Source: Stylophora pistillata (taxonomy: Eukaryota). From it: a DNA stretch of 64,000 bases. The notes under the pieces were generated by a model that searched no databases, was not told where the DNA came from, and was given only the letters and a program-made list of their open reading frames with translations. This document shows positions 9,401-63,298 of this stretch, piece by piece. The position numbers and the translations under genes are program-made. Where the stretch lies: contig NW_019218178.1 of assembly GCF_002571385.2 (NCBI RefSeq), positions 212,146 through 276,145 on the forward strand. The letters are read 5' to 3'. The first letter of the stretch is position 1. The number at the start of each line of letters is the position of its first letter.

Positions 9401-12400
9401 GCACCACAATCCGGTGAAAATGAAGCCGAAGCAGTTGTAAACCATCGGATGACCTGAGAACTAGCATTGTGATTGGTCGGTTATTCTGCCTCTGCTTGCG
9501 ATCCGACAGTTTAGTCCTCACTAGGTAATAATTGGCGGAGTTATAGCGGAGCTGGCAGCGCGCGCGGAGCGCGGCCCCATATCAATGATAAACGGAATTG
9601 GAATTGTTCATTACGTCATAGGCCCTCCTACAACGCCGGCTACGAGTCATACTCCAATGTCGACTCCGACTTCGTTGCTTATGGAAACCAACTTTTATCC
9701 TAAATTGAAATTTTTATGATCCTTTTTTAAATCCTGTCGCAGATGTTGAATTAAGAAACAGGTTGGTGTAGCTTCATTGCATTTTTATTCATTTAGTTTT
9801 TCGTCTGGTTGATTATTCCCGTCCCTTTTGATTTCGTAGCTTCTCCTCGAGGCAGGCTCAAACATCGACAGTGAAGATCATGATGGCAACACTCCATTGC
9901 ATGTCAAATGTTACGGTGAAAGTGGAGAGCCAACTGACTTAGAATGCATTGAAAAAATGGTGAGTCAAATCTTGATGATAGGAATCATTCAAATTTTGGG
10001 CTGTGGTGATACTTCCAATCAATAATGATGTAGATTTGGATCCATTAGAGACAGGCGTTGCAGTCACCCGCGTCCCTTTCTTTATTCTCAGAAACGTTCA
10101 ACTTGACTGGTTCTTGTTCTTTTAGCAACAACGTGTTAGCTTTTCATCTCGGCGTCTTTATCTGTATATTTTTTTACTCTCTATTTTGTTTAGCTGATGA
10201 AAAAAGCTCCTCTCAATATCAGAAATAATCGAGTAAGTACGAGAAATGATTTTGTTCATTAACTATGTTGCTTTTTTTTCTCTTTTTTTGTCGTAACAAA
10301 CCTTGGATTCCTTCCCCGTCTCCCCCCGTCGTCGTCTCTGTCCCCCATCCCCATTCCCCATTCCCCATTCCCGTTCCCCATTCCCGTTCCCCATTCCCGT
10401 TCCCCATTCCCGTTCCCCATTCCCGTTCCCCATTTCCGTTCCCCATTCCCGTTCCCCATTCCCGTTCCCCGTTCCCGTTCCCCATTCCCGTTCCCCATTG
10501 CCGTTCCCCATCCCCGTTCCCCATTCCCGTTCCCCATTCCCGTTCCCCATTCCCGTTCCCCATTCCCGTTCCCCATTCCCGTTCCCCATTCCCGTTCCCC
10601 ATTCCCGTTCCCCATTCCCGTTCCCCATTCCCGTTCCCCATTCCCGTTCCCCATTCNTTGAAATTTTATGTAATTTATCAGGATTTGATGCCTATTCACT
10701 GCTGTGCGATGCAAGGACGGATAGACGCCATTCAGGCTTTGCTCTTCTTCGACACAGAAGGAATCATTAGGCAAAACTTGGAGATGGAAGGCGAGGTATT
10801 ATGTCATTAAACCGTACAAACCTTACATCATCCATTTACTGATGGATTTCGTAAGATGTAACTGTTTACAAACGGGTCAGTTGTCATGAAATATTCATCT
10901 TCCACGTTTCGGATAGTCATAAACCCTACGACTTCATCAGCTATTTTTTTTAATGCAACTTTCTGCCCTCTGAGTTAATTTGGGTGTATAAAAACTATTT
11001 TCTTCTTTAGCTACTGCTTTGCCAAATCCTTGGGTTCGATCAGCTCTCATGAATTAGGTTCACGGACTCCGAAATTTCTGGATAGGAGTTGATTTTAAAA
11101 CTTTATGTATAAAACTATTTTGTTCCTTTTTCATTTCAGAAAACTCCACCCAGTCTTCTTCATTTGTCTGTGGCTAATGACTTTCTAGATTGTGCAAAAT
11201 GGTGAGTTGCCAGAAATTGTTCCTCTCTGCTGATACCTTTGTACTGATGTTGGCTCCTTGCTGTTGACCTTCACCATCTAATGAACAAATTACGCAGACC
11301 ATTTTTCAAGCGCGCGGTTGAACATTATCTCGTCTTTTTTACCTGTAATACATTTCCCACAGCTTTTCACCAGTTATAAAATGTCCTATACTTTTCGTGT
11401 TGTGCACATTTCCTCCCCTTTTTTCATCTGTTACACATTTTCCCGCGCTTCTCACGATTTGTATGTTCTTTTCACCTGTTACACGTTTCCCCATGCTATT
11501 CACAAGGTGCACGTTCTCACTTTTCACCTTTCACAAACTTGAACTCTCCCGCGCGCGTTTTTTCACCAGTTGCACGTTTTCCACGTTGTCTTGTGTTGCA
11601 AAATTACAATTGCCTATTCTTCACACCAGTTGCATGAACTTCAGTCTGAGTACCTGCTAGGCCTGAAAGCTGATTTTGGTTTCTTGTCGCAAATAGGTCA
11701 CAGAACACTTTTGTGTCTTTCTTTTAGGCTAGCAGAAAACAACTTCGAATTCAAGGACAAAGAAACAGATTTACTCGTGCATAAGATTCTACTTGAAGAA
11801 GTTCCTTGGTAAGACTTTTTTGATACAGCATCCAATGTAAAATGTTTCACCTTGACCCACGAACGAGTTCTCTGTGGACCAGTGGAAGCGTTGTATCTTT
11901 CACAACTGTTGTCTGATATTGTAACACAACGTACGTGCGTGCCGTGACTGGTGGTTGCGGTTGAAATCTCCACCAGGACTCAGAGTTATGATTTGATTTC
12001 TAAGCTTAAGTGTCGTGTGACAATTGATTTAAAAAAAAAACTGTGTTTCACGAGCTAGCAAAAATTTTCACGAACTCTAAGGCTTCGTGTGGGTTGGTTA
12101 TGTTGATTTTTTTTTTTTTTATTTTTTTTTATTTTTTTTATGTAGTGGTAATCGTGTGGCAACCGTCAGGTTTCTCCTCGAAAATGGTGCTTCCGTGAAT
12201 CCTACATACCCCGGAGGAAATACGTAAGCCTTTGATTGTTGTGAGTATTCTTTGTTAATCTCACTTTTAAATGGATTAGATTAAAATTCTGTGCGCTATC
12301 GTCCTACAGAGCTCTTCACCTGACTGCTGGCCTGTCGAACGCTTCAGATCTGTTAGAGCTGTTATTGTCATTTGATGCCGATGTTGATGCCCTGAGCGAT

Positions 12401-26555: not shown

Positions 26556-28734
26556 CTATGATCCATCCTCAAAGGGCTTCACCAAAAACATCTTGTTACC
26601 AGCGTCATCTGTAAAAATGGGATTTCTCTTGTAATGTTCTATTAAGTCTTCCACTCTGTCAAAGCTTCGTGGACCAATTTTATATTTTCCATCTGCAAAA
26701 TTTACCCTAAAATGCTTGATTTTGTCTGGAGCTTTCATGGACACTGAATATCCTCCCTCCTGGCAAGACAAAAAAAAAAAGAAGACAATTAGTCTATAGA
26801 TTCACAAAATCTTCTTAAGTATCATGTTCATCTTAAGGATAAGATGCAATTATACTTTAGAAAGCATCCTTGAGATAAAAGCAAAGGTTTAACCACACAC
26901 ACAGATTATAAAACTGCTGAGAAAAATAAACTTGAAAAAAAGACTTTGCCTCCTTCTCCAGCCCATTCATATTTGCACTTGCCCATTTATTTGAACCAGT
27001 TATCTCTTATCGTGGATGTAGTTCTACAAAGTGACACAAGAGTAGTCAAGAGTAGATCCCAAAGCTCATAATAACCCTCGACACCCTAACATCAGTATGC
27101 ATGTTCCCCAGACATTCCCTGAGGTGCAAACAATGAGAATTTCTTTGACAATCAAGAGCTTCAGTGGATCATTTCCTTTTTTCTTATGACCTTCATGTGT
27201 GATTCAGGAGTAAATTTGTCCAGAGGAATAAGATGCTTGTCACTCTCAAGCACCAAATGGTTTACTCTGCTATCTAAACTAAAAAGCTAAATGAAGCTTC
27301 AGTTGAGAGAAAACAGAGACCTTTAACAGTAAATTAGACAATCTACCTTTAGTGAGAGGCAAACGGCCTCAGATCCTGCACAGCCCTACCATTGTTTTTT
27401 CAAAAAGACCTGGTGGTCTCAGAATCAGAGATTGCCCTGCAAGTTTCTATGCTAATCCTCTAAACCTTAACAGGGTCTGGGTTAAGGTCTAACAGGTCTA
27501 GCAGCACCCGCTGGCCCCTGGCGCCTTGTTTCTGCTCTTAGATAACTCAGGAATCTTAGTTTTTTCGTACAAAGCATACAGTGTATGCTGGGTAGCCCTG
27601 GATTTCACAGTTTCAGAGCACTAGGCTCCCTTCAATTTTTCTTAAAGCACAGCCTTGCTCAACATCAGTTTACAAATTCTCCATAATGTTCACTACACAC
27701 TTCCTATAGTGCTGATTAGGAGACTTTTTTTAACAACCAAAAGTTTCTTCTGCTGCTGATCACTTACTTTGTTCTCCTACATTAACCTGTTTGACCCCAC
27801 AGCAATGCTGTTGGGAGAAATTTCAAGCTAGTAAAAGCATAACAAGGTTCTTCCTTACCTGAGTTTCACTAACCCTTACTAGAAAATCTCCATCAGCTGC
27901 ATTTTTATTCAACATCTTTTCAGCCTGAACCCTTGTGATTTTACCCCAAAACCATGCCTCGTCAACAAATGGAAGTTTCTTATGCTGAGGTAAAATAGCT
28001 TTTCCCGGTCCCTTGTTGTCAGCTGCTGGCTCTACATTCTGCATTGGCATTTTGCCATCATTGTCTACATTTACAATATAATTGCTGGGGACCAGTCCCG
28101 AAGAACCATCTGATTTTCTCGCAACCCACCATTCAGGGTCATCTTCGGGTTTCTCAATTATATCCAGAATTTCATCCTTTTTAAAACTAAGCTCTTCGGG
28201 ATTTTTCGGATCAAAGTTGTACAGTGTCTTCACTTTGTGAAGTACCGGTTTATCTGGGACAGATTTAGTCACTTTTGAGTTCTCTTCTGCATGTACATAA
28301 TTGGAAGGAAACCAGCCTGATTCTTTTCCAATTTTCCCCTTCCACCAACCATCTTCTTTCTTTTCAAGAACAGTTATTCTGTCACCCTTCTTCAATACAA
28401 GTTCATCATCATGTTGCGGCTGGAAATTAAATTTAGCAATCACAGTTTCGAAAGCATTTAGAACATCCTGTGGAACAAAGTATTCCCCTGGTGAAGTCAT
28501 GGCTCCATTTTCCTTTGATGATTTTCCAGGTCCTAGACTTTTTAACCAGTTTTTGGGTTTGCTCTTTTTTACATAGTTGGAAGGGACATAACCAGTTTCC
28601 CGCTTTGAATTTTCCACATGCCACCAAGATTTGCTATCATCAAGAATGACCAGTTTCTCATCCTTTTTTATGGAGAGCTCTTCATTCTGTGTAGCTTTGT
28701 AGTCATAAAGAGCGATAGCATTAGTGTATGACAT
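26556..28734 (-). CDS. NCK: Cytoplasmic adaptor NCK/Dock (SH3-SH3-SH3-SH2), ~359 aa
   Basis: Coding exon 28734-27859 (ATG directly after acceptor ttttacag; donor CAG/gtaagg) plus exon 26759-26556 (TAG). Three SH3 domains ([17 protein letters not shown]; [21 protein letters not shown]; [20 protein letters not shown]) and an SH2 domain ([17 protein letters not shown]|..[17 protein letters not shown]). Confidence 0.95.
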
Positions 28735-31523
28735 CTGTAAAAAGAGGGAAATTACAGTTATTATCACAGGCCATAATGGAGAGTTTACTGCAGGGCATAA
28801 AATTAACTTTCTTTTTCTGGTAGCCACTTGGCTCCTAAATATTTTAAAGTGATAGCCAATTCCAAAAGGTTGGTGGCCGTTATGACACACACACGCACAA
28901 AAATTTATTTACCCTGTCACTGTACTAAATAGATTTTCATATCATAGTAATACAGTCATATAAACATCAAAAATGAGCCTGCTAAATTTGCACAAGCTAC
29001 AAAGAGGACACTACAATGGATCATATACAACTTTATAGGTTACCTAAATCCAAGATGGCGTCTAGTGACTATAGATTTACGTTCGACATCGTGCATGTGC
29101 TGCATTTTGGAAACGAGCTTAACGAGGAACTTTGCCGCAAATTTATCCTTACAAATCTTCAACAATCACTAGATCTCTAGGTAAGGTGTGATTAGAAATT
29201 CTAGTCGCCAATTTGGCGACTAATTTTCAGGATTTGGTCGCCAAAGTGAAAAACTTAGTCGCATTGGCGCCTGTATTAGGTGCAATTTTACACCCTGTAG
29301 TGGACTAATTAACAAATCAAGATTGATTTAGCATTGTCTGTACTCTTATTGACTACTATATTCACCCTCACAGTGGTCAAAATAATGTGGACTCGTGAGG
29401 TGCAGCCCGTTGACACGAGCAGTGCTGTCTGTACTCTCATCAACAATTGCAAATTTGGCCAATCAGATTGGGACATTGCTGCCAATTATGGTAAAAAATT
29501 TATTTTAGAATAATGAAATTAAACCAGTGAGAAGCGAAAATCAACCAAATGTACAATATAAGCGGCTGGTAAATAAACAAGTTTTACGTATGATGCACAA
29601 TCCTCGCAGTAGATAGCGCTATTTATGCAATACGTATCTAATACCGCAGTTCAAAATATATGAACTTCATATATTTATTCTATCTCAAAAAAGTTTTAAA
29701 TACGCTCTGACTTCCCTATCATGTCTTTTGTAATTTTTGCAAAACTCAAATAGCAAAATTTCATATTCTAGCCAGCTTTGCTCAATGGTGTAATTTCATT
29801 TAAGGAAAATAGAAGCCATTCAACTGGTAAATGATGGTGTTAACCCTAAAAACCCAGATTGTTTTGCTATTGATTTTTTTCAGTTTTAATTCTCTCAATC
29901 CCCACCAAAGTAACAGTAATACAGTTTACTTTCTTGGGCATAAATATGTTTCAGGCACCTCAGAGTAATTTTAACCCTCACCTGGTATCTCAGGCTAAAA
30001 ATGGATAACTCAAAGTCAACCCCAAAACATCTTTGTGCCTGCCAACATAACCTGTATTGTTTTATTATATCCAAATAATCAATCAACAAATCTATGGAGG
30101 TTTTTCGTTTATTTTAGATTACCAAAAACTTCAGCCATCCTGGCAAACATCATCGAGTTTACATTTGTATTGCTGTTCAATTTTCAACCTGATTAAAAAT
30201 TCATTCACACATCAGATTCATTTTTACATATTTTCCTCTTTTTTCTGAAGACATCCAAGAATTTAAGGCAAGGTAAGATCACACTGGTTTTAAAGAACTT
30301 TAACTCAATGTAAAAAAAAAAAAAAAAAACTTTGAACCACAACAGGCACAGTTTATCACTATTATCAGAGTAACACTTGAGATTGTCCTTGAAGAAATTT
30401 TGGAGAAGATCTATGTGAGCATGTGTTATACCTAAATTTACGGTATTATTGAAACTCTTCAACAGCTGAAACAACATTCTGTCCTTCAAGGGAAATTGAA
30501 AATCACAGCTATTTCACAACAAATCCCAAACAATCACCAGGACGAGAAAGATTGATAAAATAGTGTGAATCATGTACGGTATAAAAGATTTAAAAACAGG
30601 CAATGTAATAACTTAACATCTGAACCTTGTACCGACTGAATATCGAACCAATTACTCGCAACACTTTTTGATACAGTCCTACTCCACGCGTACTTTTTTT
30701 CTGCTTTTATTTGTATGAAGTCACATGCTAGACTTGCTTACCACACGAAAGTGAAACAACAATTAATGACCGCTACTGCTAACTTTCATTTGACTGAAAT
30801 TGCTTTCATTATTAGAAATAAAAAGATTCTGAAAGAAAAATTCGCTCCTTTCCATAATATTCTTGCGCAATTAATAATTCTTATCGTAACTAATTTGTTT
30901 TGCAAGAGAAAATCTGCTTAGTTAAAAAACGGTACCACTGATGTTTATCAAGAACAAGGTGAGATAATGCGAGAAGAACTAAATATTTAACTTCAAAGTG
31001 GTCATCTAAAATTGTGTAGCGAATTTTTCAATCAACCGGAAAATTTCTATTTGGTGTATATTTTTATATTTAGTTGAGATACTTCTTATGATTTCTGAAA
31101 AGTAAATACAGTTCCTCATCTAAGATGCTTATCTCGAATGGTAGACCTCAAACAGAATCAGCGGCGTAGAGAAGATCGTGCCCTTACGAACGAAAGAGAA
31201 TGCTCAGTAAAGGGAATTTAATATCAATTCCACAGGCGGTATATAACTCACGAAATTTGCCTCTCGCCAAGTTGGAACTCACTTTCGAAAAGCAAACAGC
31301 CTAACCAATAAAAATCTACATAGGCGGTCACAGATTAATTACATTTGTATTTTCCATGGATTAGAGAACAGACAAACAATATACAAACCGTACACACGGA
31401 CCTCGTTCGTAATTTTTTCTTTCCCTTGTGTGAGTATTGCTGCTTACAGTAAAAATATGCCTAAAGATGACTTTGTCTACCATCAATTTCCTCTAGAATG
31501 GCTCCTTCGAAGTCAAAACTAAC

Positions 31524-31972: not shown

Positions 31973-32130
31973 CTATAAATTAAAAGCGATTTTTAAAAGG
32001 TGAGTCTTGAGCCTGGTTTTAAAATATCTTATGAAATCAGAAATTTTGTTCCAAAGCATGGGGGATGGACGCGCAAAGGATCTGTCGCTATAGGTAGAGG
32101 TTCTAAATCTTGGGGCAGACAAGTGATGGA
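31973..32130 (-). mobile_element. L2/CR1-clade LINE 3' fragment
   Basis: Translates as PRFRTSTYSDRSFARPSPMLWNKIS..IR..FKTRLKTHLLKIAF*, the RT C-terminal motif. Confidence 0.75.
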
Positions 32131-32144
32131 CCTTGAGGAAAGGN

Positions 32145-32319
32145 ATCGTTCGAACGTTTGGCCTCACTATCATGGGGATTACCTTGAACGCGGAATCGGC
32201 TGTTCCTTATATCACATTCGCCTTCGTGGTCTGGCGAAACGTATACCTTTGTTTCAACAATTTACAAAATACGTACAAGGAAATCAAAATTATGATTTGG
32301 GAAGAATGGAAAGAGCAGA
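32145..32319 (+). pseudogene. 175-bp fragment of the membrane-protein gene family, running directly into a microsatellite
   Basis: Aligns to 40893-41067 with 3 differences in the first 25 nt and identity thereafter. It starts right after an N. Confidence 0.8.
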
Positions 32320-32585
32320 GCGAAGGAACGAAGGAACGAAGGAACGAAGGAACGAAGGAACGAAGGAACGAAGGAACGAAGGAGCGAAGGGACGAAGGAA
32401 CGAAGGAACCAAGGAACGAATGGAACGAAGGAACGAAGGAACGAAGGAACGAAGGAATGAAGCAACGAAGGAAAGAAGCAACGAAGGAACGAATAGAAGG
32501 AAGGAACGAAGGAACGAAGGAACGAAGGAACGAATGGAACGAAGGAACGAAGGAACGAAGGAACGAAGTAACGAAGGAGCGAATG
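32320..32585. repeat. 8-bp tandem repeat (GAAGGAAC)n
   Basis: About 30 units. It explains the ERRNEGTK-type spurious ORFs. Confidence 0.95.
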
Positions 32586-33070
32586 ACATAATTTACCCTT
32601 ACGGCTACGACCATGAAATGCTTTGAGACCATTCGACATTCGATAAACTGAAGAAGGGTAGCACCGTACAGTCGATACGTCGTGACCCACATCACTAAAT
32701 TGTGTAACAAATGATGAGAACTTTATTATCATTGTATTCCACTGTAATAAATAATCCAAATCTTTTGATACCAAAAAATCAAGATCCATGAACGATGAAA
32801 CCCAACAGTTCTATTGGAAATACTTGCGCAGTTACGTAACAAAAATGTTATGTTTTTATATCATCACTCATGGCAAACCTTTGTTTATGAGAATCTTTTT
32901 TCCTTCAGGATAGCGCGGATAGCCTCCATCACTAACCGAGCTAATTGTGGTTATCATGAACAAAAAAATGTGTACTTATCGTCCTTTGCCAACACTTTTT
33001 TGGTGTCAACGTTTTTGCAACCGTGTGTAACTGCTAACTTTTATGCTTGAACTACCGTACGTGCTCTGTA

Positions 33071-33224: not shown

Positions 33225-33474
33225 AGTATCTTAAGCAACCAGCCTAAACGGTCGATCAAGCATGCCGAATTTTGGAAATATGCGGAGGTCCATAAGCATG
33301 CATTGCAAATTAACGAAAGGAAATTGAAACATTTCCTTGAAACGAAGGAAGTCTAAACATTTCTTCTCCCTCTAAAAATCCCCGCCAAACCCAACTGACG
33401 CAGGCAGTTAGTTATTGTATAAATGGACATTCTACGCCAGTTTCTCATGCGAAGCATGCAAGCAGACAACACAC

Positions 33475-35093
33475 GTGCCACGAAGAAGTTTATTCCTTTC
33501 TGTTCTGATTGTTTCTTGTTTGATTTGTCGTAATATGGCAAAGTATTCTTGTGACAAATCGAAGTGTCGGGTTTCTCTCAACAGCGATTCATCGCCTGAG
33601 TTCGGATTGAAAGCTTCTGAAAAAGGTGTGAAACAAGTGTACTTAAAAATTCAAGATCTTCATTGACAGTTACAGAATTTTGCCGTACAGATGGGTTTGG
33701 GCTCGAAGCGAAAGCGAGCCAATGTTAGGTCTGTCCTACGACTATGACGTTTTGTCTTCAGTTGGGTCTGTTGAAAAATCAAGCAAAGTCCATGGTTTTG
33801 ATCTTTAAAAGAAACACAACATGGATGCCTTCTAGATTTGAATTATTCATGCCAGCTCATTGCCATAGCAGAAGCGCTGACAAACTTAACAGCGACAACA
33901 AGTTCAACTGATGGGAAACTGATGAATGAGCTAAACTCTGGTGTCGTTTGTTTCCGAGTCTTGAAGGAATTCTCTTTCGGCCTTGGAAGTGGATTTAAGT
34001 ACAAGTGTTGCAAGTAGGCTAAGGAAAATTAGAGAAACCAAGTAAACTGTGACTTTGACCTAATTGAAAGCATATGGCTCTTGGTTTTTAACGCTGTTTT
34101 GACAGTAGTTTTCATCTTTGTGTTGTTCTACTGGCCTTTGCTACTCTGTGGGATTCCAGATTTCTTATCACACGGACATCTTCAGGGATACGGAAGAAAA
34201 GTTACTTCAAAACAAGGAAAAAATGAAAATGGAAAAGAAGGGGAGATATTTTTGACTACAGTAGACGAACTCCCGGTGGATGATTCAAGCCCGATAACTT
34301 GTGCGGAGATTGTACAAAAATGCATGACTAATTTGCCATCTTTAAGTACGGATTCAATGTAAAATTGATTCTCTTTTGGTATTGTATAATTCCAATATTT
34401 TTTTACATTAAACTCTTGTTGTATTTTATAATCAAGGAGAACTTCGACGAGACCTCCAGAAAGCTTCTGTTTCAAGTTGTTGATTCTTATCTTTACATCT
34501 TTAGCATGGTTAAACCTGCTGTTTATGTTTTGTTTATTGTGCCGTTATTTGTAATATCCACTGTGGTAATTTTCTGTTGGACACCCAGAAAAGGCGGGGT
34601 TTTTCATTCAGGTGAAGTGTTTCATTTGCGGGCGAGACCAGCTCAGTCTTAAAAAGCATACAGTAGAGCATGTAAAAATTATGCCTAATAGTTTAATCAA
34701 GGTAATGAAAACTGTTTTACTCTTTCTTCGACAGTTCGCATTAAAGATGCGTCCCAGCGGCAATGAATGTATCCATTCTCAGCAGTCACTGTGTGGGAAT
34801 GCATTTTGTATCTTATGCACGATTGCATTCGTGGTTGTTATGAGTCTAATCGCCATGTAACAATATCTCTTTTAATCGGCTTAGCTGTTTTTATTGTAAA
34901 AACTATTGTACATTCTCCCCTCGATACTGGATTGATTCACCTGACAGCACAAGCTAAATTTATAATTCATAAATACGGTAAAATTTGCAAGTGGTTGTCG
35001 AATTTTCTATTCATCATTGTTTCCCTCCCATTTTTCGTCAGCGTATCAATCAATGTCACCTTTTCTAGTCAATTCATCGTTCGAACGTTCGGT
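33475..35093 (+). pseudogene. Disabled paralog (copy A) of the intronless membrane-protein gene, truncated by the N gap
   Basis: Collinear with 39260-40910. ATG is changed to GTG (ACGTGCCA vs ACATGGCA), there are in-frame TAG stops near 34015 and 34030, and several indel frameshifts (e.g. near 33665, 33760, 33805, 34345, 34615). Confidence 0.85.
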
Positions 35094-36631
35094 NNNNNNN
35101 NNNNNNNNNNNNNNNNNNNNNNNNNNNNNNNNNNNNNNNNNNNNNNNNNNNNNNNNNNNNNNNNNNNNNNNNNNNNNNNNNNNNNNNNNNNNNNNNNNNN
35201 NNNNNNNNNNNNNNNNNNNNNNNNNNNNNNNNNNNNNNNNNNNNNNNNNNNNNNNNNNNNNNNNNNNNNNNNNNNNNNNNNNNNNNNNNNNNNNNNNNNN
35301 NNNNNNNNNNNNNNNNNNNNNNNNNNNNNNNNNNNNNNNNNNNNNNNNNNNNNNNNNNNNNNNNNNNNNNNNNNNNNNNNNNNNNNNNNNNNNNNNNNNN
35401 NNNNNNNNNNNNNNNNNNNNNNNNNNNNNNNNNNNNNNNNNNNNNNNNNNNNNNNNNNNNNNNNNNNNNNNNNNNNNNNNNNNNNNNNNNNNNNNNNNNN
35501 NNNNNNNNNNNNNNNNNNNNNNNNNNNNNNNNNNNNNNNNNNNNNNNNNNNNNNNNNNNNNNNNNNNNNNNNNNNNNNNNNNNNNNNNNNNNNNNNNNNN
35601 NNNNNNNNNNNNNNNNNNNNNNNNNNNNNNNNNNNNNNNNNNNNNNNNNNNNNNNNNNNNNNNNNNNNNNNNNNNNNNNNNNNNNNNNNNNNNNNNNNNN
35701 NNNNNNNNNNNNNNNNNNNNNNNNNNNNNNNNNNNNNNNNNNNNNNNNNNNNNNNNNNNNNNNNNNNNNNNNNNNNNNNNNNNNNNNNNNNNNNNNNNNN
35801 NNNNNNNNNNNNNNNNNNNNNNNNNNNNNNNNNNNNNNNNNNNNNNNNNNNNNNNNNNNNNNNNNNNNNNNNNNNNNNNNNNNNNNNNNNNNNNNNNNNN
35901 NNNNNNNNNNNNNNNNNNNNNNNNNNNNNNNNNNNNNNNNNNNNNNNNNNNNNNNNNNNNNNNNNNNNNNNNNNNNNNNNNNNNNNNNNNNNNNNNNNNN
36001 NNNNNNNNNNNNNNNNNNNNNNNNNNNNNNNNNNNNNNNNNNNNNTTATTGAGTAGTTGTTTGAAATAATGAGCTAGCCTAAAAAATAAGACAAACAGCG
36101 GTGATGAACATTGTATTCCAATGCATTTTATACAGAACTTGACGTTTCGTATGCTAGTCAACATACATTTTCAAAAGTGAACCGTTACAATTGTTGAAAA
36201 CTATATGTAGTGAATGTAAGAGTTCTGGAACCTAGACTGAAGACCACTGGTCACAACATTAAATGGGATCATTTTGACATTTTAGCGTCGGGAAAAACTG
36301 ACTTCCATTGTAAAATTAAAGAGACTTTGTTCATTCAAGAGCTAAAGCCTTCTCTTAATGTCAATGTTAGTAGTGAGAAGTTGTTGTTATTTTAGCCAGT
36401 ACTTCTCATTAGTCTAGACATATAGACCACTTTCATAAATGGCTGCCGGATTAACATTCTTTTGTTTAAATTTAAATTAGCCCTTCTGGCCTCGCTTGAG
36501 ATGATGTATTCTTTTGAATTTTGTCTAGAGAACGAGGCCAGAAGGGCTAATTTAAATTTAAACAAAAGAATGTTAATCCGGCAGCCATTTATGAAAGTGG
36601 TCTATATGTCTAGACTAATGAGAAGTACTGG

Positions 36632-36790
36632 CTAAAATAACAACAACTTCTCACTACTAACATTGACATTAAGAGAAGGCTTTAGCTCTTGAATGAACAA
36701 AGTCTCTTTAATTTTACAATGGAAGTCAGTTTTTCCCGACGCTAAAATGTCAAAATGATCCCATTTAATGTTGTGACCAGTGGTCTTCAG
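36632..36790 (-). mobile_element. Penelope-like element GIY-YIG endonuclease C-terminal fragment (mirror copy at ~36237-36395 +)
   Basis: KTTGHNIKWDHFDILASGKTDFHCKIKETLFIQELKPSLNVNVSSEKLLLF* matches the 'H..w..f.IL.......IkE.l.I....P.LN' end of the PLE endonuclease. Confidence 0.8.
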
Positions 36791-36848
36791 TCTAGGTTCC
36801 AGAACTCTTACATTCACTACATATAGTTTTCAACAATTGTAACGGTTC

Positions 36849-36890
36849 ACTTTTGAAAATGTATGTTGACTAGCATACGAAACGTCAAGT
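36849..36890 (+). ncRNA. Minimal hammerhead ribozyme motif with U3-A8 core variant (mirror at 36137-36178 -)
   Basis: ACTT-TTGAAAA-T-GTATG-TTGACTAG-CATAC-GAAA-CG-TC-AAGT. Stem I is ACTT/AAGT, stem II is 5 bp, stem III is the ACGT palindrome. It lies next to the PLE endonuclease fragment. Confidence 0.6.
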
Positions 36891-37124
36891 TCTGTATAAA
36901 ATGCATTGGAATACAATGTTCATCACCGCTGTTTGTCTTATTTTTTAGGCTAGCTCATTATTTCAAACAACTACTCAATAATAGAAACTATCGTAGCTTA
37001 AAAGATACCTTTTTGACAATTTGTACAAACTTTTTACAAATTTTGAAAATTTGTAATGAAGAAGAAAAGGTTTGAGTGCAATGCGTCGCATAATGAAAAA
37101 GCCGTAAACTACGCCGTTAGGGAC

Positions 37125-37890
37125 CTCTTTCTCTCGTCCCCTCTTCCTTCGTTCCTTCCGTTCCTTCGTTCTTTCGTTCCTTCGTTCCCTCATTCCTTCA
37201 TTCCTTAGTTCCCTCGTCCCCTCTTCCTTCGTTCATTCCTTCCCTCGTTCCGTCGTTCCGTCGTTCCGTCGTTCCGTCGTTCCATCGTTCCGTCGTTCCG
37301 TCGTTCCCTCGTTCCCTCGTTCCCTCGTTCCCTCGTTCCCTCGTTCCCTCGTTCTCTCGTCCCTCGTTCCCTCGTTCCGTCGTTCTCTCGTTCCGTCGTT
37401 CCCTCGTCCCCTCTTCCTTCGCTTATTCGCTCCTTCGTTCCTTCGTTCATTCCTTCCCTCGTTCCGTCGTTCCTTCGTTCCGTCGTTCCGTCGTTCTCTC
37501 GTTCTCTCGTCCCCTCGTTCCCTCGTTCTCTCGTTCCCTTGTTCCCTTGTTCCCTCGTTCCGTCGTCCCTCGCTCCCTCGTTCTCTCGTTGTCTCGTTGT
37601 CTCGTTCCCTCGCTACCTCGTTCCTTCGTTCCCTCGTTCCCTCGTTCCCTCGTTCCATCGTTCCCTCGTTCCCTCGTTCCGTTGTTCCCTCGTTCTCTCG
37701 TTCCCTCGCTCCCTCGCTCCCTCGTTCTCTCGTTCCCTCGCTCCCTCGCTCCCTCGTTCTCTCGTTCCCTCGCTCCCTCGCTCCCTCGCTCCCTCGCTCC
37801 CTCGTTCCCTCGTTCCCTCGTTCCGTCGTTCCCTCGCTCCCTCGTTCTCTCGTTCCCTCGTTCCTTCTCCTCCACTCTTCCCCTCCTTCA
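37125..37890. repeat. 8-bp tandem repeat (CCTCGTTC/CGTCGTTC)n, opposite-strand relative of the 32320-32585 array
   Basis: Directly visible. It is the source of many spurious ERGNEGTR and SLVPSFPR ORFs. Confidence 0.95.
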
Positions 37891-38451
37891 TTACTGGTTC
37901 ATTTGATCATTCATTAATTTATGTATTCATTCATGTATACTATTTGTTCAGTAATTCCTTAAATTCACGCATTTGCCTATTATCCGCTTGATTCTCGTGA
38001 AAGCCTCTTTTTCTGGAGAAACTAATCATTAATCAGGAGCATTGGGAAAATTTCTGGGAATATCAGAACTTTTCATAATTAAGGGAACAGAATTTTACCC
38101 TTACATGTATTTTAAACCAGAAGGCAGAAACTCGAAATCACTACAAAATTTTCGATGATGTAAACCAAAACAAGAAAAGAAAGGCTAACAGCAAAAATCT
38201 AAATTTTGTGATAAAAACATATGCAAATTTCACATCGAATGAAAACTTAGGTCTTAAAACTTACAAATCTTTTCAGGAATATTACGGTCATACATTTTCT
38301 TTATTCTTGTACCCAGAGCCGTTCGATGTGAGTGAGTCGCTCGTTTCTCCGACCACGTGACCAAAAGAAACAAGGGCTTTGGGGTATGAGACTGATTTTC
38401 ATAAGTTTGCAATACATACTTATGGATCTCCGCATATTTAATTAATTTGGC

Positions 38452-39259: not shown

Positions 39260-41462
39260 ATGGCACAAAGAAGATTCCTTCTCTCTGTTTTGATTGTTTC
39301 TTATTTGATTTGTCGTAGTATCGCAAAATATTCTTGTGGCAAATCGAAGTGTCAGCTTTCAGTTAGGAGCGGTTCGTCGCCTGATTTCATATCGAAAGCT
39401 TCTGAAAAAGGTGTGAAACTTGTGTACTTAAAATTCAAGATCTTCAATGACAGTTACAAGCCACTCGTGACGAATAACAGAATTTTGCCGTACAGGTGGG
39501 TTTGGGCCCGAAGTGAAAGCGAATCGATGTTAGGTCTGTCCTACGACTATGACGTTTTGTCTTTGGGTCTATTGAAAAATCAAGCAAGGACGATGGTGTT
39601 GTCTTTAATGGAGACACATCATGGATGCGTCCTAGCCTTGAATTCTTCATGCCAGGCCATTGCCATCACAGAAGCGTTGACAAAACTTGATAGCGACTAC
39701 AAATTCAACTGACGGGAAACTGATGAATGAGCTAAACTCTGGAGTCGTTTGTTTCCGAGTCTTGAAGGAATTCTCTTTCGGCCTTGGAAGTGGATTTAAG
39801 TACAAGTGCTGCGAGAGGGTTGAAGAAGATCAGAGGCACCAAGTTTACTGTGGCTTTGACGTGAAAGAGAGCATATGGCTCTCGGTTTTCAACTCTGTCT
39901 TGAACGTGGTTGTAACCATTGTTTTCTTTTATGGGCCTTACCTCTTCTGTGTGGTTCCAGATTTCTTCTCGGACGGACATCGCCAGGATCACGTAAAGAA
40001 TCTTACTTCAAAACAAAGTAAAATTGAAAATGAAGAGGAGACATTTCTGGCAATATTAGATGAAATTCCAGTGGATGATTCAAGCCCGATAAGCTGTACA
40101 GAGATTGTGCAAAAATGCGTGAAGAATTTGCCAACTTTAAACTATGGATTCAACGTAAAATTAATCCTCCTTTGGTACTGTATAATTCCAACATTTTTCT
40201 TCTTTAAGCTCTTGTTATATTTTATTATCAAGGATAACTTCGACGAGGCTTCCAAGAAGCTTCTGTTTCAAGTGGCTGATGCTTATCTTTATATCTTTAG
40301 CATGGATAAACCTGCTGTTTATGTTTTGTTTATTGTACCGTTATTTGTAATACCTACCTTGGTAATTTCCTTTTGGAGATTTGAAGAGAGCCTGGATTTG
40401 TATTTAGGTGAATGTTTCATTTGCACGGACTCGGGCTCAGATTCTCAACTCAGTCTAAAAGAGCATTTTGTAAAGCGTTTAAAAACTATGCCAAATAGTG
40501 TAATCAAAATAATGGAAAGAGTTTTGGAAAAGCTCTTCCTTCAAAAGTTCGGGTCAAAGTTCCCGCCCTGCTCTGAATGCAACCATTTTCAACAGTCACT
40601 GTGTGGGCATGCAATTTGTGTCTTATCCACAGTCGCATTCATGATGATTTACGGTCCAATTGCCATCACAATCTCTCTTTTGATTTATTTAGCTGTTTTA
40701 CTTGTGACAACTATAATATATTCGCCTCTCGTAACTGGATTAATTTACCTGACAAAATCCATGACCTCACAAATTGAATCCATTCACAAACACCGTAAAA
40801 AATGCAAGTGGCTATCGAATTTTCTAATCCTCATTATTTCAATTCCGTTTTTCGTAAGCGTATCAATCATTACAATCTTCTCTTGTCAATACATCGTTAG
40901 AACGTCTGGCCTCACTCTCATGGGGATTACCTTGAACGCGGAATCGGCTGTTCCTTATATCACATTCGCCTTCGTGGTCTGGCGAAACGTATACCTTTGT
41001 TTCAACAATTTACAAAATACGTACAAGGAAATCAAAATTATGATTTGGGAAGAATGGAAAGAGCAGAAAAAGCCTAAGAGAGAAGGCACAATTCCAAAAA
41101 AACTATTTTGGTCCATCTGCAAGGACTCGGTTGCAAATGAAATTTGCGCCATGTTGTGTAAAATGGTTGCGATACTCATATTTCTGTCAATTGCCTTAGC
41201 AGCAATCTTTCTGTTCAAAGTCGAGTATAATTCGTCGACTATAGTCTCTAGTATAGCTGTGTTTGTGAGCGGAAAGATATCAGAAGTGTTTTTTAGTAGA
41301 GTTACAACGGGCAACAATATAACTGGCTGGGAGAGAGTTCTGGAAAAACAAAAGATTCGCGACGCTGTGCGAGAATTCACACCTGACATGTTCGACGGTG
41401 AACGCGACGTTCGTATGGAGAGGGATTTTTCTATGGTTTCACCCCACGAGTCTGCAGTCTGA
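39260..41462 (+). CDS. Intronless uncharacterised multi-pass membrane protein (copy B), ~733 aa if one frameshift is corrected
   Basis: ORFs 39260..39712 and 39687..41462 join if one A is removed from AAAA at 39682-39685; paralog A has AAA at 33882-33884. It has a signal-peptide-like MAQRRFLLSVLIVSYLIC, a Cys-containing ectodomain and roughly 8-10 hydrophobic segments. Confidence 0.75.
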
Positions 41463-47458: not shown

Positions 47459-49546
47459 ATGGCACAGAATTTGTCGTTCTCTATCGCCAATATTCTTCGC
47501 TCGGACTTCCCTCCACCTTCTCAGATCAGACAAGTACCGAGGTGTCTTTACTTAGAACGTCTAGCTGAAAGCAGAAATTTGCCATACGTCGCTCTGAGAT
47601 GCCAACTAGATCGACGAGCTAGCTTCTGTAATGAAACAGAATTTTTTGCCAGAAATTATTACAGCGCGCACACATTTCCTGTAATATCAGAGAAGGATGC
47701 CAAGATTCAAAACTCTGGTTATATCAGAGAACAACAAAGAAAGAAAGGTAGGTGAAGTTTGATTTCTTGAACACGCTTTGAACTGTTCAGGTTAAGTTCA
47801 TTTCCCCTCACTCTCTTCTGCAGTTAGCTCCTAAGGGCAGTTATGTTAAAAACGTGGTTAGCTTTTCACACATCGACACACACAACAAAACACTTGGAAT
47901 CTCTGACTCTGAGGCGTGTAAGGTGTCGGGGTTAAAAATATTTGTTTGCGTATTTTCTAAGCGCAATTAGTTCAGTTTAAACCAGCTTTGGATTTCTCGC
48001 CTTTTGTTTTTAAAGCAAGCATTGAAATTTGGCGCTAAGCGGACATACAATGTTTATGTATGCATTTTAACTCGTATGTTCAGTCCTGCGCTAGGACAGT
48101 TTTCCGCCAGCAACTTGTCATTTAACGCCTAAAGAGTGAACTGAAGTGTGAAAAGCTTGTATTCTGCGCGGTGGTAAAATTTGTTCTCAAACGTGTTTGA
48201 TGCTTTCGATTTCAATTGCCCGCGTTTTACTTTCCTTATGTACGCCATCGGCGTTAATTGAGGGCACTTTTGTCAAAATCCCGCTTCCACGAATTCTCCC
48301 CCAGGACATCGACGTAATTTATTGCATGAAACGAAGCGATGGTGGTCAAGGCATCCCAAGCGACCAAGACTCATAAAAAGTTCATTATTCTGATGTTTTT
48401 TTTTTTTTATAACCAACCTACATTTCTAGGTACCCTTTCACGTCAGCACACTTAAAGGATTCTTTCCCTGTGGGGAGAGGCCCCTGTTATTGTATTTTTC
48501 AGCGGGAAATAGCCGTACGATTGATAAGACACATAAGTCAGCTTTTTAACGCTTATCGCTTTAACTCTAAAGATCTGATTGATACTTCTACCCCTTAGCT
48601 GTTATGCATTTCCTTGTAGATTATTTAATGTGTTAGATAAAGATAACAACTCTTACCTCATAACTGGGTTTAAGTACTCTTATTACCTGTCTACAGGATA
48701 ATGTATGGGTATTGTAGGACTAAGTTACGACTTCTGGAAGTTCTAGAAGAGTAGGTTACCTCGGGTGTTCTCGTCACAATTTCAAAACATTTTCTTGGAA
48801 ACAGGAAATGAATAAGGAAGAATTGATCAGTAGAAATACGTTGTCTCGATGTAAAACTAAAATCTCCAGACTGATTTTAACAAAGCAGATATTTGTAGCG
48901 CTGGTCCTTCGTTAGAGCGTCGTTCGCTTTTGATACGTCAGCTTTAGACACTCTCTAACAGTGGCTAATTTACAACAAACTTAGGTGGTAAAGCCAAATT
49001 ATCTCATAAAAACCCCCGCCAACGCAGCACTACAGTTTGTTTCGAAACTTACCACCTCCTTTCATTTGATTTTAACAAAGAGAGACGAAGTAGATAAAAA
49101 TAGAGACATCGTTGACAAAACCAGTCTAAAGAGGAGCTGGTTTCAAACTAAAGGTGATGTAAAGAAAATAATCTTTTTTTACCATTTGTTTCATAGATAT
49201 ATTGGCAGCTAACGGAAATAAAAAGATAGAGGAAGGTAAACGGAGCAGTGAACTGACTGGCACTGCTGCAAAAAGTGCAGTGAAAAAGAAACGGAATCGA
49301 AGCCATTTCACTCAGGTGCAGCTTAAGTATTTGGAAGACGTATTTACCCGCCAGCAGTACCTTACACGCGACGAACGCGCTCTGCTGGCGACTGCTTTAA
49401 ACATGACGGAGCTGCAGATAAGAAACTGGTTTCAGAACAGGAGATATCAGTTGAGGCACCGAGGATTAAACAGAGCCAGACAGGTTCCAGTCAAAGTACT
49501 GGTCAGCAGTAGTACAGGGCAGGATTCTGATGATCGTAGCACGTGA
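47459..49546 (+). CDS. Divergent NK3/NK2-like homeobox protein, tandem copy 1 (~212 aa)
   Basis: Exon 1 47459-47747 (MAQNLSFSIANIL, eh1/TN motif; phase-1 donor G/gtaggt). Exon 2 49197-49546, with an in-frame alternative acceptor at 49209. Homeodomain 49286-49465 KKRNRSHFTQVQLKYLEDVFTRQQYLTRDERALLATALNMTELQIRNWFQNRRYQLRHRG, followed by RQVPVKVLV (NK2-SD/NK3-like). Confidence 0.92.
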
Positions 49547-54522: not shown

Positions 54523-57500
54523 ATGGATCTCAACAACCAGAAATCGAAGCTATCTTTCTCGATTGAAAATATTCTGCGAGATGATTTTTCTACAAGGCCA
54601 AGAAAAGATGTTCCTACACAGATACCATCCATGCATTCTAGTTTTGTAAAATGGCCGAATATTCCGGTGTATCGCCTTTGTGCAGTTCGTTACAACCCAA
54701 TGTTTGTGCAGGTTTTGCCGCGATGGCAATATGCTGCCGGGACCAAGCTGAACAATATGAAAACAGAGGACCAACAGACGTTTCAAGAGCAGCAAAGAAA
54801 CATCGGAGAAGACATTAGTTGCTCTGCCTGTGAAGACCCAAAAGGCGAAGGTTGGTTTTAATGTTTAGAAAGCTATTTTTGGAAAAATAATCTTCATAAC
54901 CACTAGCTGAATGGCAAAATTAGTGCCTTGAACATAATCGATACATTCATTATTGGCAAAATTTTTAAAGCTTCACGGTTTGGTAACCTTAAGTTTTTTT
55001 AACCACTGAATAAATTAAGGTTCAAAGTTATTTAACAATAAGTGGGGGCAGGAACTCACAAAACATGTTGTAATGCGTTTATTTAAACGCTGGTAATCCT
55101 TCAGACACATCTCACATGATTATGTTTCAGTACCAGCGTGACATACGGCACTCAATTCGTAAGCTCTCAAAGCAGGCGAAAGTCTAAAATTCACTTAGAT
55201 ATAAGTATTTTTACTTATTTTGTAACATGGGTCAAACTCTTCGCGACAAGAGAAAACAAAAGAATAATTGGCGATGTTTTACTCACAAAAATAACTTTAT
55301 CGACTTGAGCAGGGTCCAAATTTCAGTTAAAACGATGTTACTTTTGATATGACTACTAGTGAAGGAATCGTTCATTTTCCGTCGCTAAAAGGTATACGCC
55401 AAAGCAGGTCTAAGGATTTAAGAAATTCTCTTTATATACGCTGGCGTCATATCACGAGGAAGCAAGAATTCCTTGCCTAAAAAGTAGACTTGTATAGCTT
55501 AGCATTATCATTATTTCATAGCGGTTTAAAAGAATACGACGGCTAGATGTAAAAAAGGAAAATTCTTGTTGACACCAAAAGTGTGGCCCGTCTTTTGTAA
55601 TTAGAAATAGCAAGTAAGAACTTTCTGGGCGGGATTAGCTGGGAAAGACCAAAGGAAAAACAAAACCACTGAGCGTTTCGTTTCAATCCCTGAGAAAGAG
55701 TGAGATAAAAAAAAAGATCATTCACAGCTCACTAATTTCCTATGCAATTTGAAAAACTTTGCTAGGTTTTGAATGTGATAAAATGATATGCCACGAAGAC
55801 ATCGGCTCATAATGGCCATACTGACCGTGCGGTACCCTTGCTTTTCGTCTGTTTTAAAAGAAATCGCTCAGCACAGGCAGGCCTTGAAACTGTTAACTTT
55901 TATTTCACATCGAGCGTGTGAACAGTTAAGATGTGAGCCCCGTTTACAATTCAGTTTTCAAATGCCGCCGTGGTCCACTTCGGGCTTTGCAAAAAGTTTC
56001 TAATCTTAAATTTCCTTTCCAAAAAAAAAATTGTTTTCATCGAAGCCCATTTTCAGACTCTTCCTATAAAAAAGGTTTCAGCGCATTTCAGTTAATTCTA
56101 AGTTCTCGCAGTTAATATTATATAGAGTCAACTTTCTTACTGCATTTCGGTGTAACCTTTACGCGCTGAGCTGAAAGCGTTTCTCTGAGATTTCTGTGTT
56201 AAAATTCTGACCACAACTTCTGACGCACAATCAAAAATATGCCCAGAGTCTGCCTTGAGGTATTCCGCAATCCGATCACATTTTCTGTTTTTCCTTATTA
56301 CATTCATTTACTTGCGAAAAGCTGTTGGTGATAATTCGATCGTAAGATGTTCAGGAACGATTGAAATGCATGATCGTGCTATTTCGCCATCGAGAGATAC
56401 ATGGGTGTGTTTTGCGTTATTTGCATAAAAAAGAAACCACGCAGTTTAATTTTTTCGTGCAAATGAATTTCCGCTTCAAGTGTTTATATCATGGTTTACA
56501 GAGTTTCAAGTGTTTGTTTTTAGATATACTGGCATTTTAGAATGTCTTTTGCCTTCTGTTTAGGGTTGTGTCTTTTTTCATAATTTATGACGCTTTCCAC
56601 GTCAACCGCCTCAATTACAAGCTTAAAACAAATTCTTTTCTAGGAAAAAAACCGATGATCTTTCAGCGAAGGATAACCATACTTTCCCATTAAGTTGAAA
56701 GTATGGTTATCAAAATAATCCAAAATGGATTATTTTGTTTCGCGTCTCTGGGATAATTTATCTCGTGTTATACAGTAAAAGTTCCGATAAAGAATGAATC
56801 CTTGAATAGTAAGAACTTAAGCTTTTATATTGTATTCTTTCGGGTTAGAGAGAGCTTGTTCAGAACGTGATCACCCGCCTAGACCTACTGTGGTGTACAT
56901 CAACTATTACATGATATTAGCGAAAATTGACATACAGTGAGGGATTTATTGAAGACACGCACACTTTGAATAGCTCATATCTTTTGTTTGTCCTGAAATA
57001 ATCAGTCTATGCGCTTCTTAACGCAATAATGAGGCCCTGACACAATTGTAGCGAAAAATAATCTTCTGTTACTCTATTTACAATGAATACGTTTGATTTT
57101 GTTACAGTATTCATACAAGCTAGGATGGGGTTTAAAATCGCAGGAATATCCGCTCAACGATTACAATATCAGAGGCACTCTTGTTATTAAATGTAACCGC
57201 AAATGTTATATCGAATTAACTATTTTACGTTTGAGCACTTGAAAATTTTCGAGCACGGATCTTCGTTTCAGTATATAATCCTAAAAATTACCAAAGCTCA
57301 TATTGTTTTCTGTTTTATTTTCAGACGAAAGAAACGAAAACAAAGCCAAGGTGGAATCCAAATCAGAGAAATGCTTGAAAGTGAAAACTTCGGAGAGAAA
57401 ACGCCGTCATCGCAGCCATTTCACGCAACGTCAGCTTCAATATTTAGACAAAATCTTTTCTCGCCAGCAGTATCTCACCCGAGACGAACGCACGCTATTA

Positions 57501-57638
57501 GCGAGGGGTCTGGAAATGACTGAACTTCAGATCAGAAACTGGTTTCAAAACCGGAGATACCAGCGAAAACATCGAGAAAACAAGGACACAAAACCAGATG
57601 AAAAGGGTTCGCCATCAAGTGTGAGAAGTGAAGATTAA
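54523..57638 (+). CDS. Divergent NK3/NK2-like homeobox protein, tandem copy 2 (~213 aa)
   Basis: Exon 1 54523-54850 (KLSFSIENILRDDF; phase-1 donor G/gttggt). Exon 2 57325-57638. Homeodomain 57399-57578 KRRHRSHFTQRQLQYLDKIFSRQQYLTRDERTLLARGLEMTELQIRNWFQNRRYQRKHRE is 45/60 identical to copy 1. Confidence 0.92.
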
Positions 57639-62964: not shown

Positions 62965-63298
62965 ATGGATTTGTCCGAACAAAAAACGAGTCTCTCATTT
63001 TCGATCGAAAATATCTTACGAGAAGACTTCGCCCATCGACGTAGGCCGAATTTTGTTAACTTCTCCACGCGGGGCGAGTTAGATTACGAGCGTTGGCCAA
63101 GCTCACCTTTTTATCAGTGTTGTTCGGTGCGTTTCCTAAGCCCCGGCTTTGTGAAATGTTTACCCAATATTCACAGAGTGGAGGACAGATTACAGAGACC
63201 GAATGCAGCAACAGAAAACCTTTCTTTAGAAGAAGAGAAGAAATCTTTGGAGGAAGATAGCTTGGGTTGTAAAGAAAAAGTGATTCTCCAAGAAAATG
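62965..63298 (+). CDS. Exon 1 of tandem homeobox copy 3 (homeodomain exon predicted beyond the window)
   Basis: MDLSEQKTSLSFSIENILREDF aligns with copy 2. Exon length is similar (334 vs 328 nt) and the donor is again phase 1 (G/gtaaga). Confidence 0.85.

What the first reader, a model, noticed from the sequence alone, without database searches (positions are those of the whole stretch)
49286..49465. Atypical recognition helix QIRNWFQNRRYQ (N47, Q50, Y54, Q55) shared by both homeodomains
Seen: residues 40-55 (MTELQIRNWFQNRRYQ) and RSHFTQ in the N-terminal arm are invariant between copies 1 and 2. Known: NK2/NK3 helices read QVKIWFQNxRYK, N47 is typical of TALE/SINE/CUT/HNF classes rather than ANTP-class genes, and positions 47, 50, 54 and 55 determine specificity. 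Inference: these paralogs may bind a site different from the NK T(C/A)AAGTG consensus, and the change predates the duplication and has been conserved.
Basis: partly seen in the sequence, partly recalled or inferred. Interest (0 to 1): 0.75.

Follow-up and report, generated by a model that had tools for sequence, protein, structure and literature searches.

The report
Coral NK-like homeobox, unusual recognition helix
These are intact, spliced, side-by-side copies of a homeobox gene family shared by stony corals and sea anemones, likely descended from NK-type genes, whose DNA-reading helix carries a fixed unusual residue (Asn47) that likely shifts, rather than replaces, the NK-type binding preference; that binding is untested.

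Summary
Both homeodomains (49286-49465, 57399-57578) carry N47, Q50, Y54 and Q55, and residues 40-55 are identical despite saturated synonymous sites. They are two of four tandem copies (six in the genome), and both are spliced in RNA data. The family is not new: it is Nematostella NVHD054/NVHD081, listed in 2006 as ANTP genes of ambiguous family. Among 85 distinct family homeodomains, N47 holds in 84 and R46, Q50, Y54 in 85, but Q55 in only 61. Q55 is therefore not a fixed determinant. Helix-3 invariance between paralogues is ordinary; the residue itself is what is unusual. Y54, an eh1 motif and a VPVKVLV motif otherwise seen only after NK2/3/4 homeodomains point to an NK2/3/4 origin, though the tree does not resolve the parent. 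In NKX2-5, Y54 is the main NK determinant and a change at 47 shifts preference among NK and HOX-like sites. The likeliest reading is a Groucho-recruiting repressor with a shifted NK-type site; a wholly new motif gets about 20%. I found no measured motif, but could not see the dataset that holds measured Nematostella motifs.

The parts
47459..47747 (+). Copy 1 exon 1 (coding), with eh1/TN motif FSIANIL at 47477-47497
   Evidence: ORF; donor GT at 47748; joint seen in 4 of 4 RNA runs; the eh1 label rests on the motif described in PMC4901127 and on recall
47748..49196 (+). Copy 1 intron, phase 1, GT..AG, 1449 bases
49197..49546 (+). Copy 1 exon 2 (coding, to the TGA stop); protein of 212 aa from the Met at 47459
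49286..49465 (+). Homeodomain 1; R46 49421, N47 49424-49426, Q50 49433-49435, Y54 49445-49447, Q55 49448-49450
   Evidence: PF00046, E 1.8e-17
49484..49504 (+). VPVKVLV motif, like the motif that follows NK2/3/4 homeodomains
   Evidence: pattern found after 6 of 89 homeodomains of the genome (copy 1, NK3, NK4-like, three NK2-like); also after Nematostella P0115
54523..54850 (+). Copy 2 exon 1 (coding), eh1 motif FSIENIL
54851..57324 (+). Copy 2 intron, phase 1, GT..AG, 2474 bases
57325..57638 (+). Copy 2 exon 2 (coding, to the TAA stop); no VPVKVLV motif; protein of 213 aa
57399..57578 (+). Homeodomain 2; N47 at 57537-57539
   Evidence: PF00046, E 1.4e-16
62965..63298 (+). Copy 3 exon 1 with eh1 motif; its homeobox lies just beyond the window (G000:C394:277649-277828), and copy 4 follows on the minus strand (C394:284376-284552)

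Best explanation
These are tandem copies of an old coral and sea-anemone homeobox family (Nematostella NVHD054 and NVHD081), likely derived from the NK2/3/4 stock, that likely act as Groucho-recruiting repressors and likely still read an NK-type AAG core, with a shifted or loosened preference caused by the fixed Asn47. Shown: gene structure, splicing, family identity, fixation of R46/N47/Q50/Y54, variability of 55. Inferred, step by step: (1) eh1 recruits Groucho/TLE; (2) R5 and N51 anchor the usual T-A-A 5' half; (3) Y54 sets the NK-type base 4; (4) N47 replaces the hydrophobic Ile contact at bases 4-5, retuning the balance among high-affinity NK, low-affinity NK and TAAT-like sites; (5) loss of K55 mainly tunes affinity, since that position drifts. 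The family had at least two genes in anemones and expanded further in stony corals.
For: Family identity: P0107/P0115 and P0216 are Nematostella proteins whose homeodomains match NVHD054 and NVHD081 in the Ryan 2006 alignment. The family is one clade at 100/98 and 100/99. Origin: in this genome Y54 occurs in 13 of 89 homeodomains, namely the 6 family members and the 7 NK2/3/4 genes. The downstream V[AP]V[PKR]VL[VI] motif occurs after 6 of 89, all Y54 genes, and is kept from Nematostella to corals (28 of 101 family proteins). bapx1 (NK3) was the best hit of NVHD054 among 54 reference homeodomains. eh1 is present in exon 1 of all six genomic copies and binds Groucho in other proteins (PMC4901127). 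Binding: NKX2-5 Y191C (residue 54) switches to HOX-like sites, whereas I184M (residue 47) shifts from high-affinity to low-affinity NK and HOX-like sites, and I184 is called a weak contact (PMC12191230). An engineered N47-Q50-K54 domain binds taaCCA, and K54 is the residue preferred for CYN subsites while 47 is more variable there (PMC3460184).
Against: The homeodomain tree does not resolve the parent. With 88 rows the family joined a BarX/Bsx-like group weakly (83/80). With 35 rows it sat with NK2/3/4 at only 71/77, and AU tests rejected neither an NK3 sister (p 0.55) nor the BarX/Bsx-like sister (p 0.53). The stem is long (0.75-1.1 changes per site) and identity to the genome's NK3 is only 51%. 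The N-terminal arm (S6 H7) differs from NK2 (V6 L7) and NK3 (A6 A7), and position 6 is linked to base preference (PMC12392098). Near-total fixation of N47 where other ANTP genes toggle among I, V and T suggests a specific contact, which fits a new motif as well. Residue 47 covaries strongly with base 4 in selections. Ile to Met in NKX2-5 is only an analogy for Ile to Asn. No binding data for this family were seen.
Confidence: 0.5

Rival explanations
1. N47 together with Y54, R46 and the S6-H7 arm gives a qualitatively new motif, unlike both the NK and the TAAT consensus.
For: N47 is fixed in 84 of 85 distinct homeodomains across anemones and corals. Positions 47 and 54 both covary with base 4. 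The combination N47-Q50-Y54 appears in no other of the 89 homeodomains examined in this genome. The HOXD13 I322L variant (residue 47 by the paper's numbering, Q325 = 50) changes specificity (PMC11006913).
Against: Y54, Q50, N51 and R5 are all kept as in NK2/3/4. The residue-47 change in NKX2-5 shifted preference within NK and HOX-like site classes. Natural homeodomains show little motif diversity (PMC3460184).
Confidence: 0.2
2. N47 is a tolerated or structural substitution that was frozen early. The proteins bind essentially as NK3/NK2 do, and their novelty lies in expression or partners.
For: Helix 3 is near-invariant within most homeobox families here (34 of 39 control pairs unchanged at 47/50/54). 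I184 may act between stabilising and base-contacting roles. N47 alternates with I47 and T47 among the NVHD009-group paralogues.
Against: Even the conservative I184M measurably shifts NKX2-5 binding. The basic K55 of NK2/3/4 is lost in all but 1 (R55) of 85 domains.
Confidence: 0.15
3. The domain is a weak monomeric binder whose targets are set by a partner or by dimer sites, with N47 and the variable residue 55 serving that interface.
For: Loss of K55, and Q or K at residue 52 in 20 of 85 domains, could lower affinity (inference). N47 is shared with classes that often bind with partners (recalled for TALE and SINE; SIX-type N47 seen).
Against: R5, R31, R46, N51 and R53 are retained. No partner or hexapeptide evidence was found.
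Confidence: 0.1
4. The family is not NK2/3/4-derived but an independent NKL offshoot (for example near BarX/Bsx- or Tlx-like genes) that gained Y54 and the VPVKVLV motif by convergence.
For: Weak tree placement next to a BarX/Bsx-like group (83/80), not rejected by AU. A Tlx-type homeodomain scores about as well as NK3. P0087, the deepest branch, has T47.
Against: It needs two independent convergences, Y54 and the 7-residue motif, each otherwise confined to NK2/3/4 in this genome.
Confidence: 0.15

Closest known systems
Nematostella NVHD054 (DQ206272; XP_032241060.2) and NVHD081 (DQ206330), 'ANTP class, ambiguous family relationships' in Ryan et al. 2006 (PMC1779571)
   Same: Same family: R46 N47 Q50 Y54 Q55, the Y-L-S/T-R-D-E-R helix 1-2 signature, eh1, and in NVHD054 the QVPVKVLV motif.
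   Different: Two genes in Nematostella against six in this genome, four in tandem. V45 instead of I45, and K52 in NVHD054. I found no function or motif reported for them.
NK3 (bagpipe / NKX3-2 / bapx1)
   Same: Y54, Q50, N-terminal eh1, intron upstream of the homeobox, downstream V-x-V-K/R-V-L-V motif; best hit of NVHD054.
   Different: The genome has its own true NK3 (G000:C52; 56 of 60 residues equal to mouse bapx1 as printed). The family is only 51% identical to it and has R46 N47 Q55 for K46 I47 K55, and S6 H7 for A6 A7.
NK2/NK4 (NKX2-1, NKX2-2, NKX2-5, vnd, tinman)
   Same: Y54, Q50, eh1/TN motif, and a motif like the start of the NK2-specific domain (the name of this domain is recalled).
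   Different: No V6-L7 arm, no K55, no H52; a separate, strongly supported clade.
SINE/SIX, CUT, HNF and TALE homeodomains (N47 classes)
   Same: Asn at 47 (SIX-type; CUT, ONECUT, HNF; TALE and recall).
   Different: Everything else: Q50/Y54 rather than K50, H50, M50 or A50, no SIX, CUT or HNF domain, no three-residue loop insertion. N47 here is convergent (inference).
'ANTP-group-c', an anthozoan-specific tandemly expanded ANTP group (PMC10598428)
   Same: Anthozoan-specific, ANTP class, expanded by tandem duplication (passage).
   Different: Cannot tell whether it is this family or another orphan group; the supplement with the tree could not be read.

Membership tests
NVHD054/NVHD081 orphan family | Homeodomain clade with the Y-L-[ST]-R-x-E-R (25-31) and R46-N47-Q50-Y54 signature | tested here: met
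   Signature found in only the 6 family members among 89 own-genome homeodomains; clade 100/98 (tree includes anemone P0029 but not the Nematostella proteins); window HD1 is 69% identical to NVHD054 (P0107)
ANTP class, NKL subclass | 60-residue homeodomain closest to NKL genes, no intron inside the homeobox, no other class domain | tested here: met
   L26 and Q50 present
ANTP class, NKL subclass | N-terminal eh1/TN motif | tested here: met
   FS[IV]xxIL in exon 1 of all six copies; Groucho binding itself not tested
NK2/3/4 group (descent) | Tyr at homeodomain position 54 | tested here: met
   85 of 85 distinct domains; confined to NK2/3/4 and this family in the genome
NK2/3/4 group (descent) | Hydrophobic V-x-V-x-V-L-V motif after the homeodomain | tested here: met
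   Copy 1 and NVHD054 have it, copies 2-4 lack it; 6 of 89 genome-wide
NK2/3/4 group (descent) | Supported phylogenetic grouping with NK2/3/4 | tested here: inconclusive
   71/77 in the 35-row tree, not grouped in the 88-row tree; AU rejects no alternative tried
NK3 family (orthology) | Helix 3 K46-I47-Y54-K55, arm A6-A7, and high identity to bapx1 | tested here: not met
   R46 N47 Q55, S6 H7, 51% identity; a separate true NK3 exists in the genome
NK2/NK4 families (orthology) | V6-L7 arm and K46-I47-Y54-K55 helix | tested here: not met
NK2/3/4 group (function) | Binds the T(C/T)AAGTG element | not testable with these tools
   No protein-DNA assay or predictor available; no measured motif found
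SINE/CUT/HNF/TALE classes | Class-specific domain or loop insertion, and non-Q residue 50 | tested here: not met
   Pfam finds only the homeodomain in exon 2 and nothing in exon 1; Q50; gapless 60 residues

The most novel reading that the evidence does not exclude
A hexacoral-specific offshoot of the NK2/3/4 genes fixed a determinant set (R46-N47-Q50-Y54, with K55 lost) before the anemone-coral split, reads a DNA motif used by no characterised NKL protein, and was then multiplied in tandem in stony corals to run a lineage-specific repressive programme: a natural case of a homeodomain escaping the narrow motif repertoire of its class.
Probability: 0.2. Interest if true: 0.65.

Novelty: new variant of a known kind. 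Interest (0 to 1): 0.35.

Why it matters
Natural homeodomains use far fewer motifs than engineered ones can reach, and why is a stated open question (PMC3460184). A determinant set held across anemones and corals is a ready natural test: one PBM with wild type and N47I answers it. The work also gives a likely origin (NK2/3/4) to two Nematostella orphan genes that automatic annotation names inconsistently (BarH-like 2, koza, zampogna-like, HMX2-like, notochord-like, vent1-like, Hox-D9a-like). Motif inference for coral single-cell networks would currently hand these genes a borrowed motif. If binding proves NK-like, the finding is an ordinary lineage-specific paralogue family.

Tried and rejected
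Pseudogene or assembly duplicate: rejected. Frames are open, GT-AG joints appear in 4 of 4 RNA runs for copies 1 and 2 (X2 and X5 give nearly the same rows and may not be independent), and synonymous sites are saturated. Recent duplication or gene conversion as the cause of identity in 40-55: rejected, 7.0 of 7.8 synonymous sites differ. NK3 orthology: rejected (a true NK3 is elsewhere). Q55 as a family determinant: rejected. Autoregulation clue: T[CT]AAGTG occurs 21 times in 33.9 kb around the cluster, against 13.5 expected from 82.9 kb of flanking DNA and 11.0 from Markov simulations (0 of 60 reached 21). Ten patterns were tried, the looser [CT]AAGTG showed nothing (37 against 32.7), and true NK2/3/4 proteins could be the binders, so I count it as inconclusive. 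ESM Atlas gave only generic homeodomain clusters. Measured motif for an N47-Q50-Y54 domain: none found. The string IRNWFQN is in no main text; the HD054 and HD081 searches listed no cnidarian paper using those names (30 of 404 rows listed, 24 of 24). The supplements of PMC3460184, PMC10598428 and PMC12392098 could not be read, file 1 of PMC9528988 was not searched, and Noyes 2008, Berger 2008 and Weirauch 2014 are not held; Lambert 2019 did not come up. These may bear on novelty. Earlier scan findings: none. No structure prediction was run, as the register is unambiguous from sequence.

Full report
1. Observation. The window holds two complete homeoboxes on the + strand, 49286-49465 and 57399-57578. 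They differ at 14 of 60 residues. Over codons 40-55, 7.0 of 7.8 synonymous sites differ and 0 of 40.2 non-synonymous sites do, so the identity reflects selection. As a control, 39 other homeodomain pairs of the same genome with 9-19 differences show 0 changes in 40-55 in 3 cases, at most 1 in 18, and no change at 47/50/54 in 34. The invariance is ordinary. The residue is not: among 89 homeodomains with an uninterrupted helix 3 (extracted from the loci fetched; the Pfam search listed 149 matches, and those split by an intron near residue 46 were not examined), position 47 is V in 34, I in 31, T in 14 and N in 10, the last being six members of this family and four SIX-type domains.

2. Anatomy. 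Each gene has two coding exons: a first with an eh1/TN motif, a phase-1 intron, and a second with the homeobox. Both introns are GT-AG and are bridged by contigs in 4 of 4 polyA RNA runs laid (3 studies; two runs give nearly the same rows). A third first exon starts at 62965. The genome search finds four copies within 23 kb on contig C394 and two more on C488 and C283. Copy 3 has the same homeodomain and N-terminus as P0008, which NCBI names as Stylophora pistillata, so the organism is probably that coral.

3. Family. Four searches gave 233 proteins in all. Of these, 120 carry a helix 1-2 signature defined independently of helix 3, giving 85 distinct homeodomains (extraction required W48, N51 and R53, and one isoform lacking helix 3, P0055, was dropped). 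R46, Q50 and Y54 hold in 85 of 85 and N47 in 84 of 85. Position 55 is Q in 61, L in 17, H in 3, and M, R, Y, V once each. The word-free HMMER search alone gives N47 in 36 of 37 and Q55 in 28 of 37, so the result is not a seed-word artefact. All named hits are stony corals (Stylophora, Pocillopora, Porites, Montipora, Acropora, Oculina, Desmophyllum) or sea anemones (Nematostella, Actinia); most hits are unnamed, so the range is not proven. Neighbouring locus tags in Oculina and Desmophyllum and shared contig lengths for the Nematostella and Actinia pairs suggest old linkage (inference). The two Nematostella proteins match NVHD054 and NVHD081, which Ryan et al. 2006 (PMC1779571; I saw the outline, section 8, supplement 1 part 3 and search rows, supplement 4 parts 87-88) filed under ANTP genes of ambiguous family. 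The same table shows N47 in an unrelated orphan trio (NVHD009, 023, 076), so N47 is rare but not unique in the ANTP class.

4. Origin. The family is a firm clade with a long stem (100/98 in 88 rows, where 14 non-ANTP rows were left out and the bootstrap had not settled; 100/99 in 35 chosen rows). Sixty columns do not resolve its sister: weakly BarX/Bsx-like in the first tree, weakly NK2/3/4 (71/77) in the second, and AU tests reject neither. Two characters outside the tree signal favour NK2/3/4. Y54 is confined to the seven NK2/3/4 genes and the six family genes among the 89. A V[AP]V[PKR]VL[VI] motif follows only six of the 89 domains: copy 1, NK3, NK4-like and three NK2-like. It is also present in NVHD054 and its Actinia counterpart. 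With K or R at its fourth place it resembles NK3 most. I put NK2/3/4 descent at about 0.75-0.8. Gene labels for the genome's other homeoboxes are recalled from hallmark residues, except NK3, which matches mouse bapx1 as printed at 56 of 60 positions.

5. Mechanism. Shown: intact, spliced, selected genes with a fixed R46-N47-Q50-Y54 helix. Inferred: eh1 recruits Groucho/TLE (PMC4901127, passages), so they are likely repressors. Residues 47, 50 and 54 set the 3' half of the site, with 47 and 54 covarying with base 4 (PMC3460184, parts 1-3 of 6 read); feature selection also picks 3, 6, 19 and 55 (PMC3371834, passage). The nearest experimental analogy is NKX2-5 (PMC12191230, preprint, passages; residue numbers converted by me from N188 = 51). 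Y191C, at 54, switches binding to HOX-like sites. I184M, at 47, shifts preference from high-affinity to low-affinity NK and HOX-like sites, and I184 is called a weak contact. An engineered N47-Q50-K54 domain binds taaCCA, and K54 is the residue preferred for such subsites. So Y54 likely keeps an NK-type AAG core and N47 likely retunes it. Against this, near-total fixation of N47 suggests a specific contact, the arm (S6 H7) differs from NK2 and NK3, position 6 is tied to base preference (PMC12392098, section 36), and a residue-47 variant of HOXD13 changes specificity (PMC11006913, passages). My odds for binding: shifted NK-type site about 0.55, new motif 0.2, same as NK3 0.15, partner-dependent 0.1.

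6. Comparison and novelty. It likely works like an NK2/3/4 repressor but is not an NK3, NK2 or NK4 orthologue, and not a member of any N47 class. The family has been in print since 2006 as unnamed orphans. I found no text noting its helix, its coral expansion or the VPVKVLV link. It may coincide with the anthozoan 'ANTP-group-c' of PMC10598428 (passages; supplement unreadable). A bioRxiv preprint (10.1101/2025.07.01.662323, passages) states that motifs were measured for a subset of Nematostella factors in Lambert et al. 2019, which I could not see; a measured motif may therefore exist. PMC3874178, PMC11832328 and PMC9528988 (term searches and passages) added nothing on N47.

7. Verdict. Observation confirmed; interpretation partly supported (N47 old and fixed: yes; Q55: no; a different site: open, more likely a shift). 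New variant of a known kind, interest 0.35. The novel case, a new motif in a hexacoral-specific NK offshoot, has probability 0.2 and would merit 0.65.

Noticed in passing
window 27823-28908 (-): Exon encoding three SH3 domains and the start of an SH2 domain (Pfam); an NCK-type adaptor by recalled architecture.
   Followed up: partly
window 39681-41462 (+) and 33438-35088 (+): A 593-residue open frame with several hydrophobic stretches and no Pfam match at E 0.1, with a 78% identical second copy upstream that is broken into short frames.
   Followed up: partly
window about 7020-10810 (+): Short exons with ankyrin-repeat-like peptides (label recalled, not scanned).
   Followed up: no
window 36046-36981: A 936-base stretch that matches its own reverse complement at 97.7%, directly after a run of N; a fold-back element or an assembly artefact.
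   Followed up: no
window 10219-10810, 32127-32600, 37108-37990: Long simple-sequence arrays that open many spurious frames.
   Followed up: no
G000:C394:193591-193761 (-), L049: A divergent PRD-like homeobox about 68 kb upstream of copy 1, similar to the Nematostella query shown first.
   Followed up: partly
L018 (G000:C52:534001-544000): The genome's NK4-like and NK3 genes lie in tandem about 4 kb apart, with Lbx-like and Msx-like homeoboxes on the same contig (labels other than NK3 recalled): an NK-cluster remnant on another contig than this family.
   Followed up: partly
P0087 (unnamed record): The only family member seen with T47; it is the deepest branch in both trees and could mark an I to T to N path or a reversion.
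   Followed up: no
PMC1779571 supplement 1: Another Nematostella ANTP orphan group (NVHD009, 023, 076) also has N47, with M54 and K55, while its paralogues have I47 or T47: a second, labile origin of N47.
   Followed up: no
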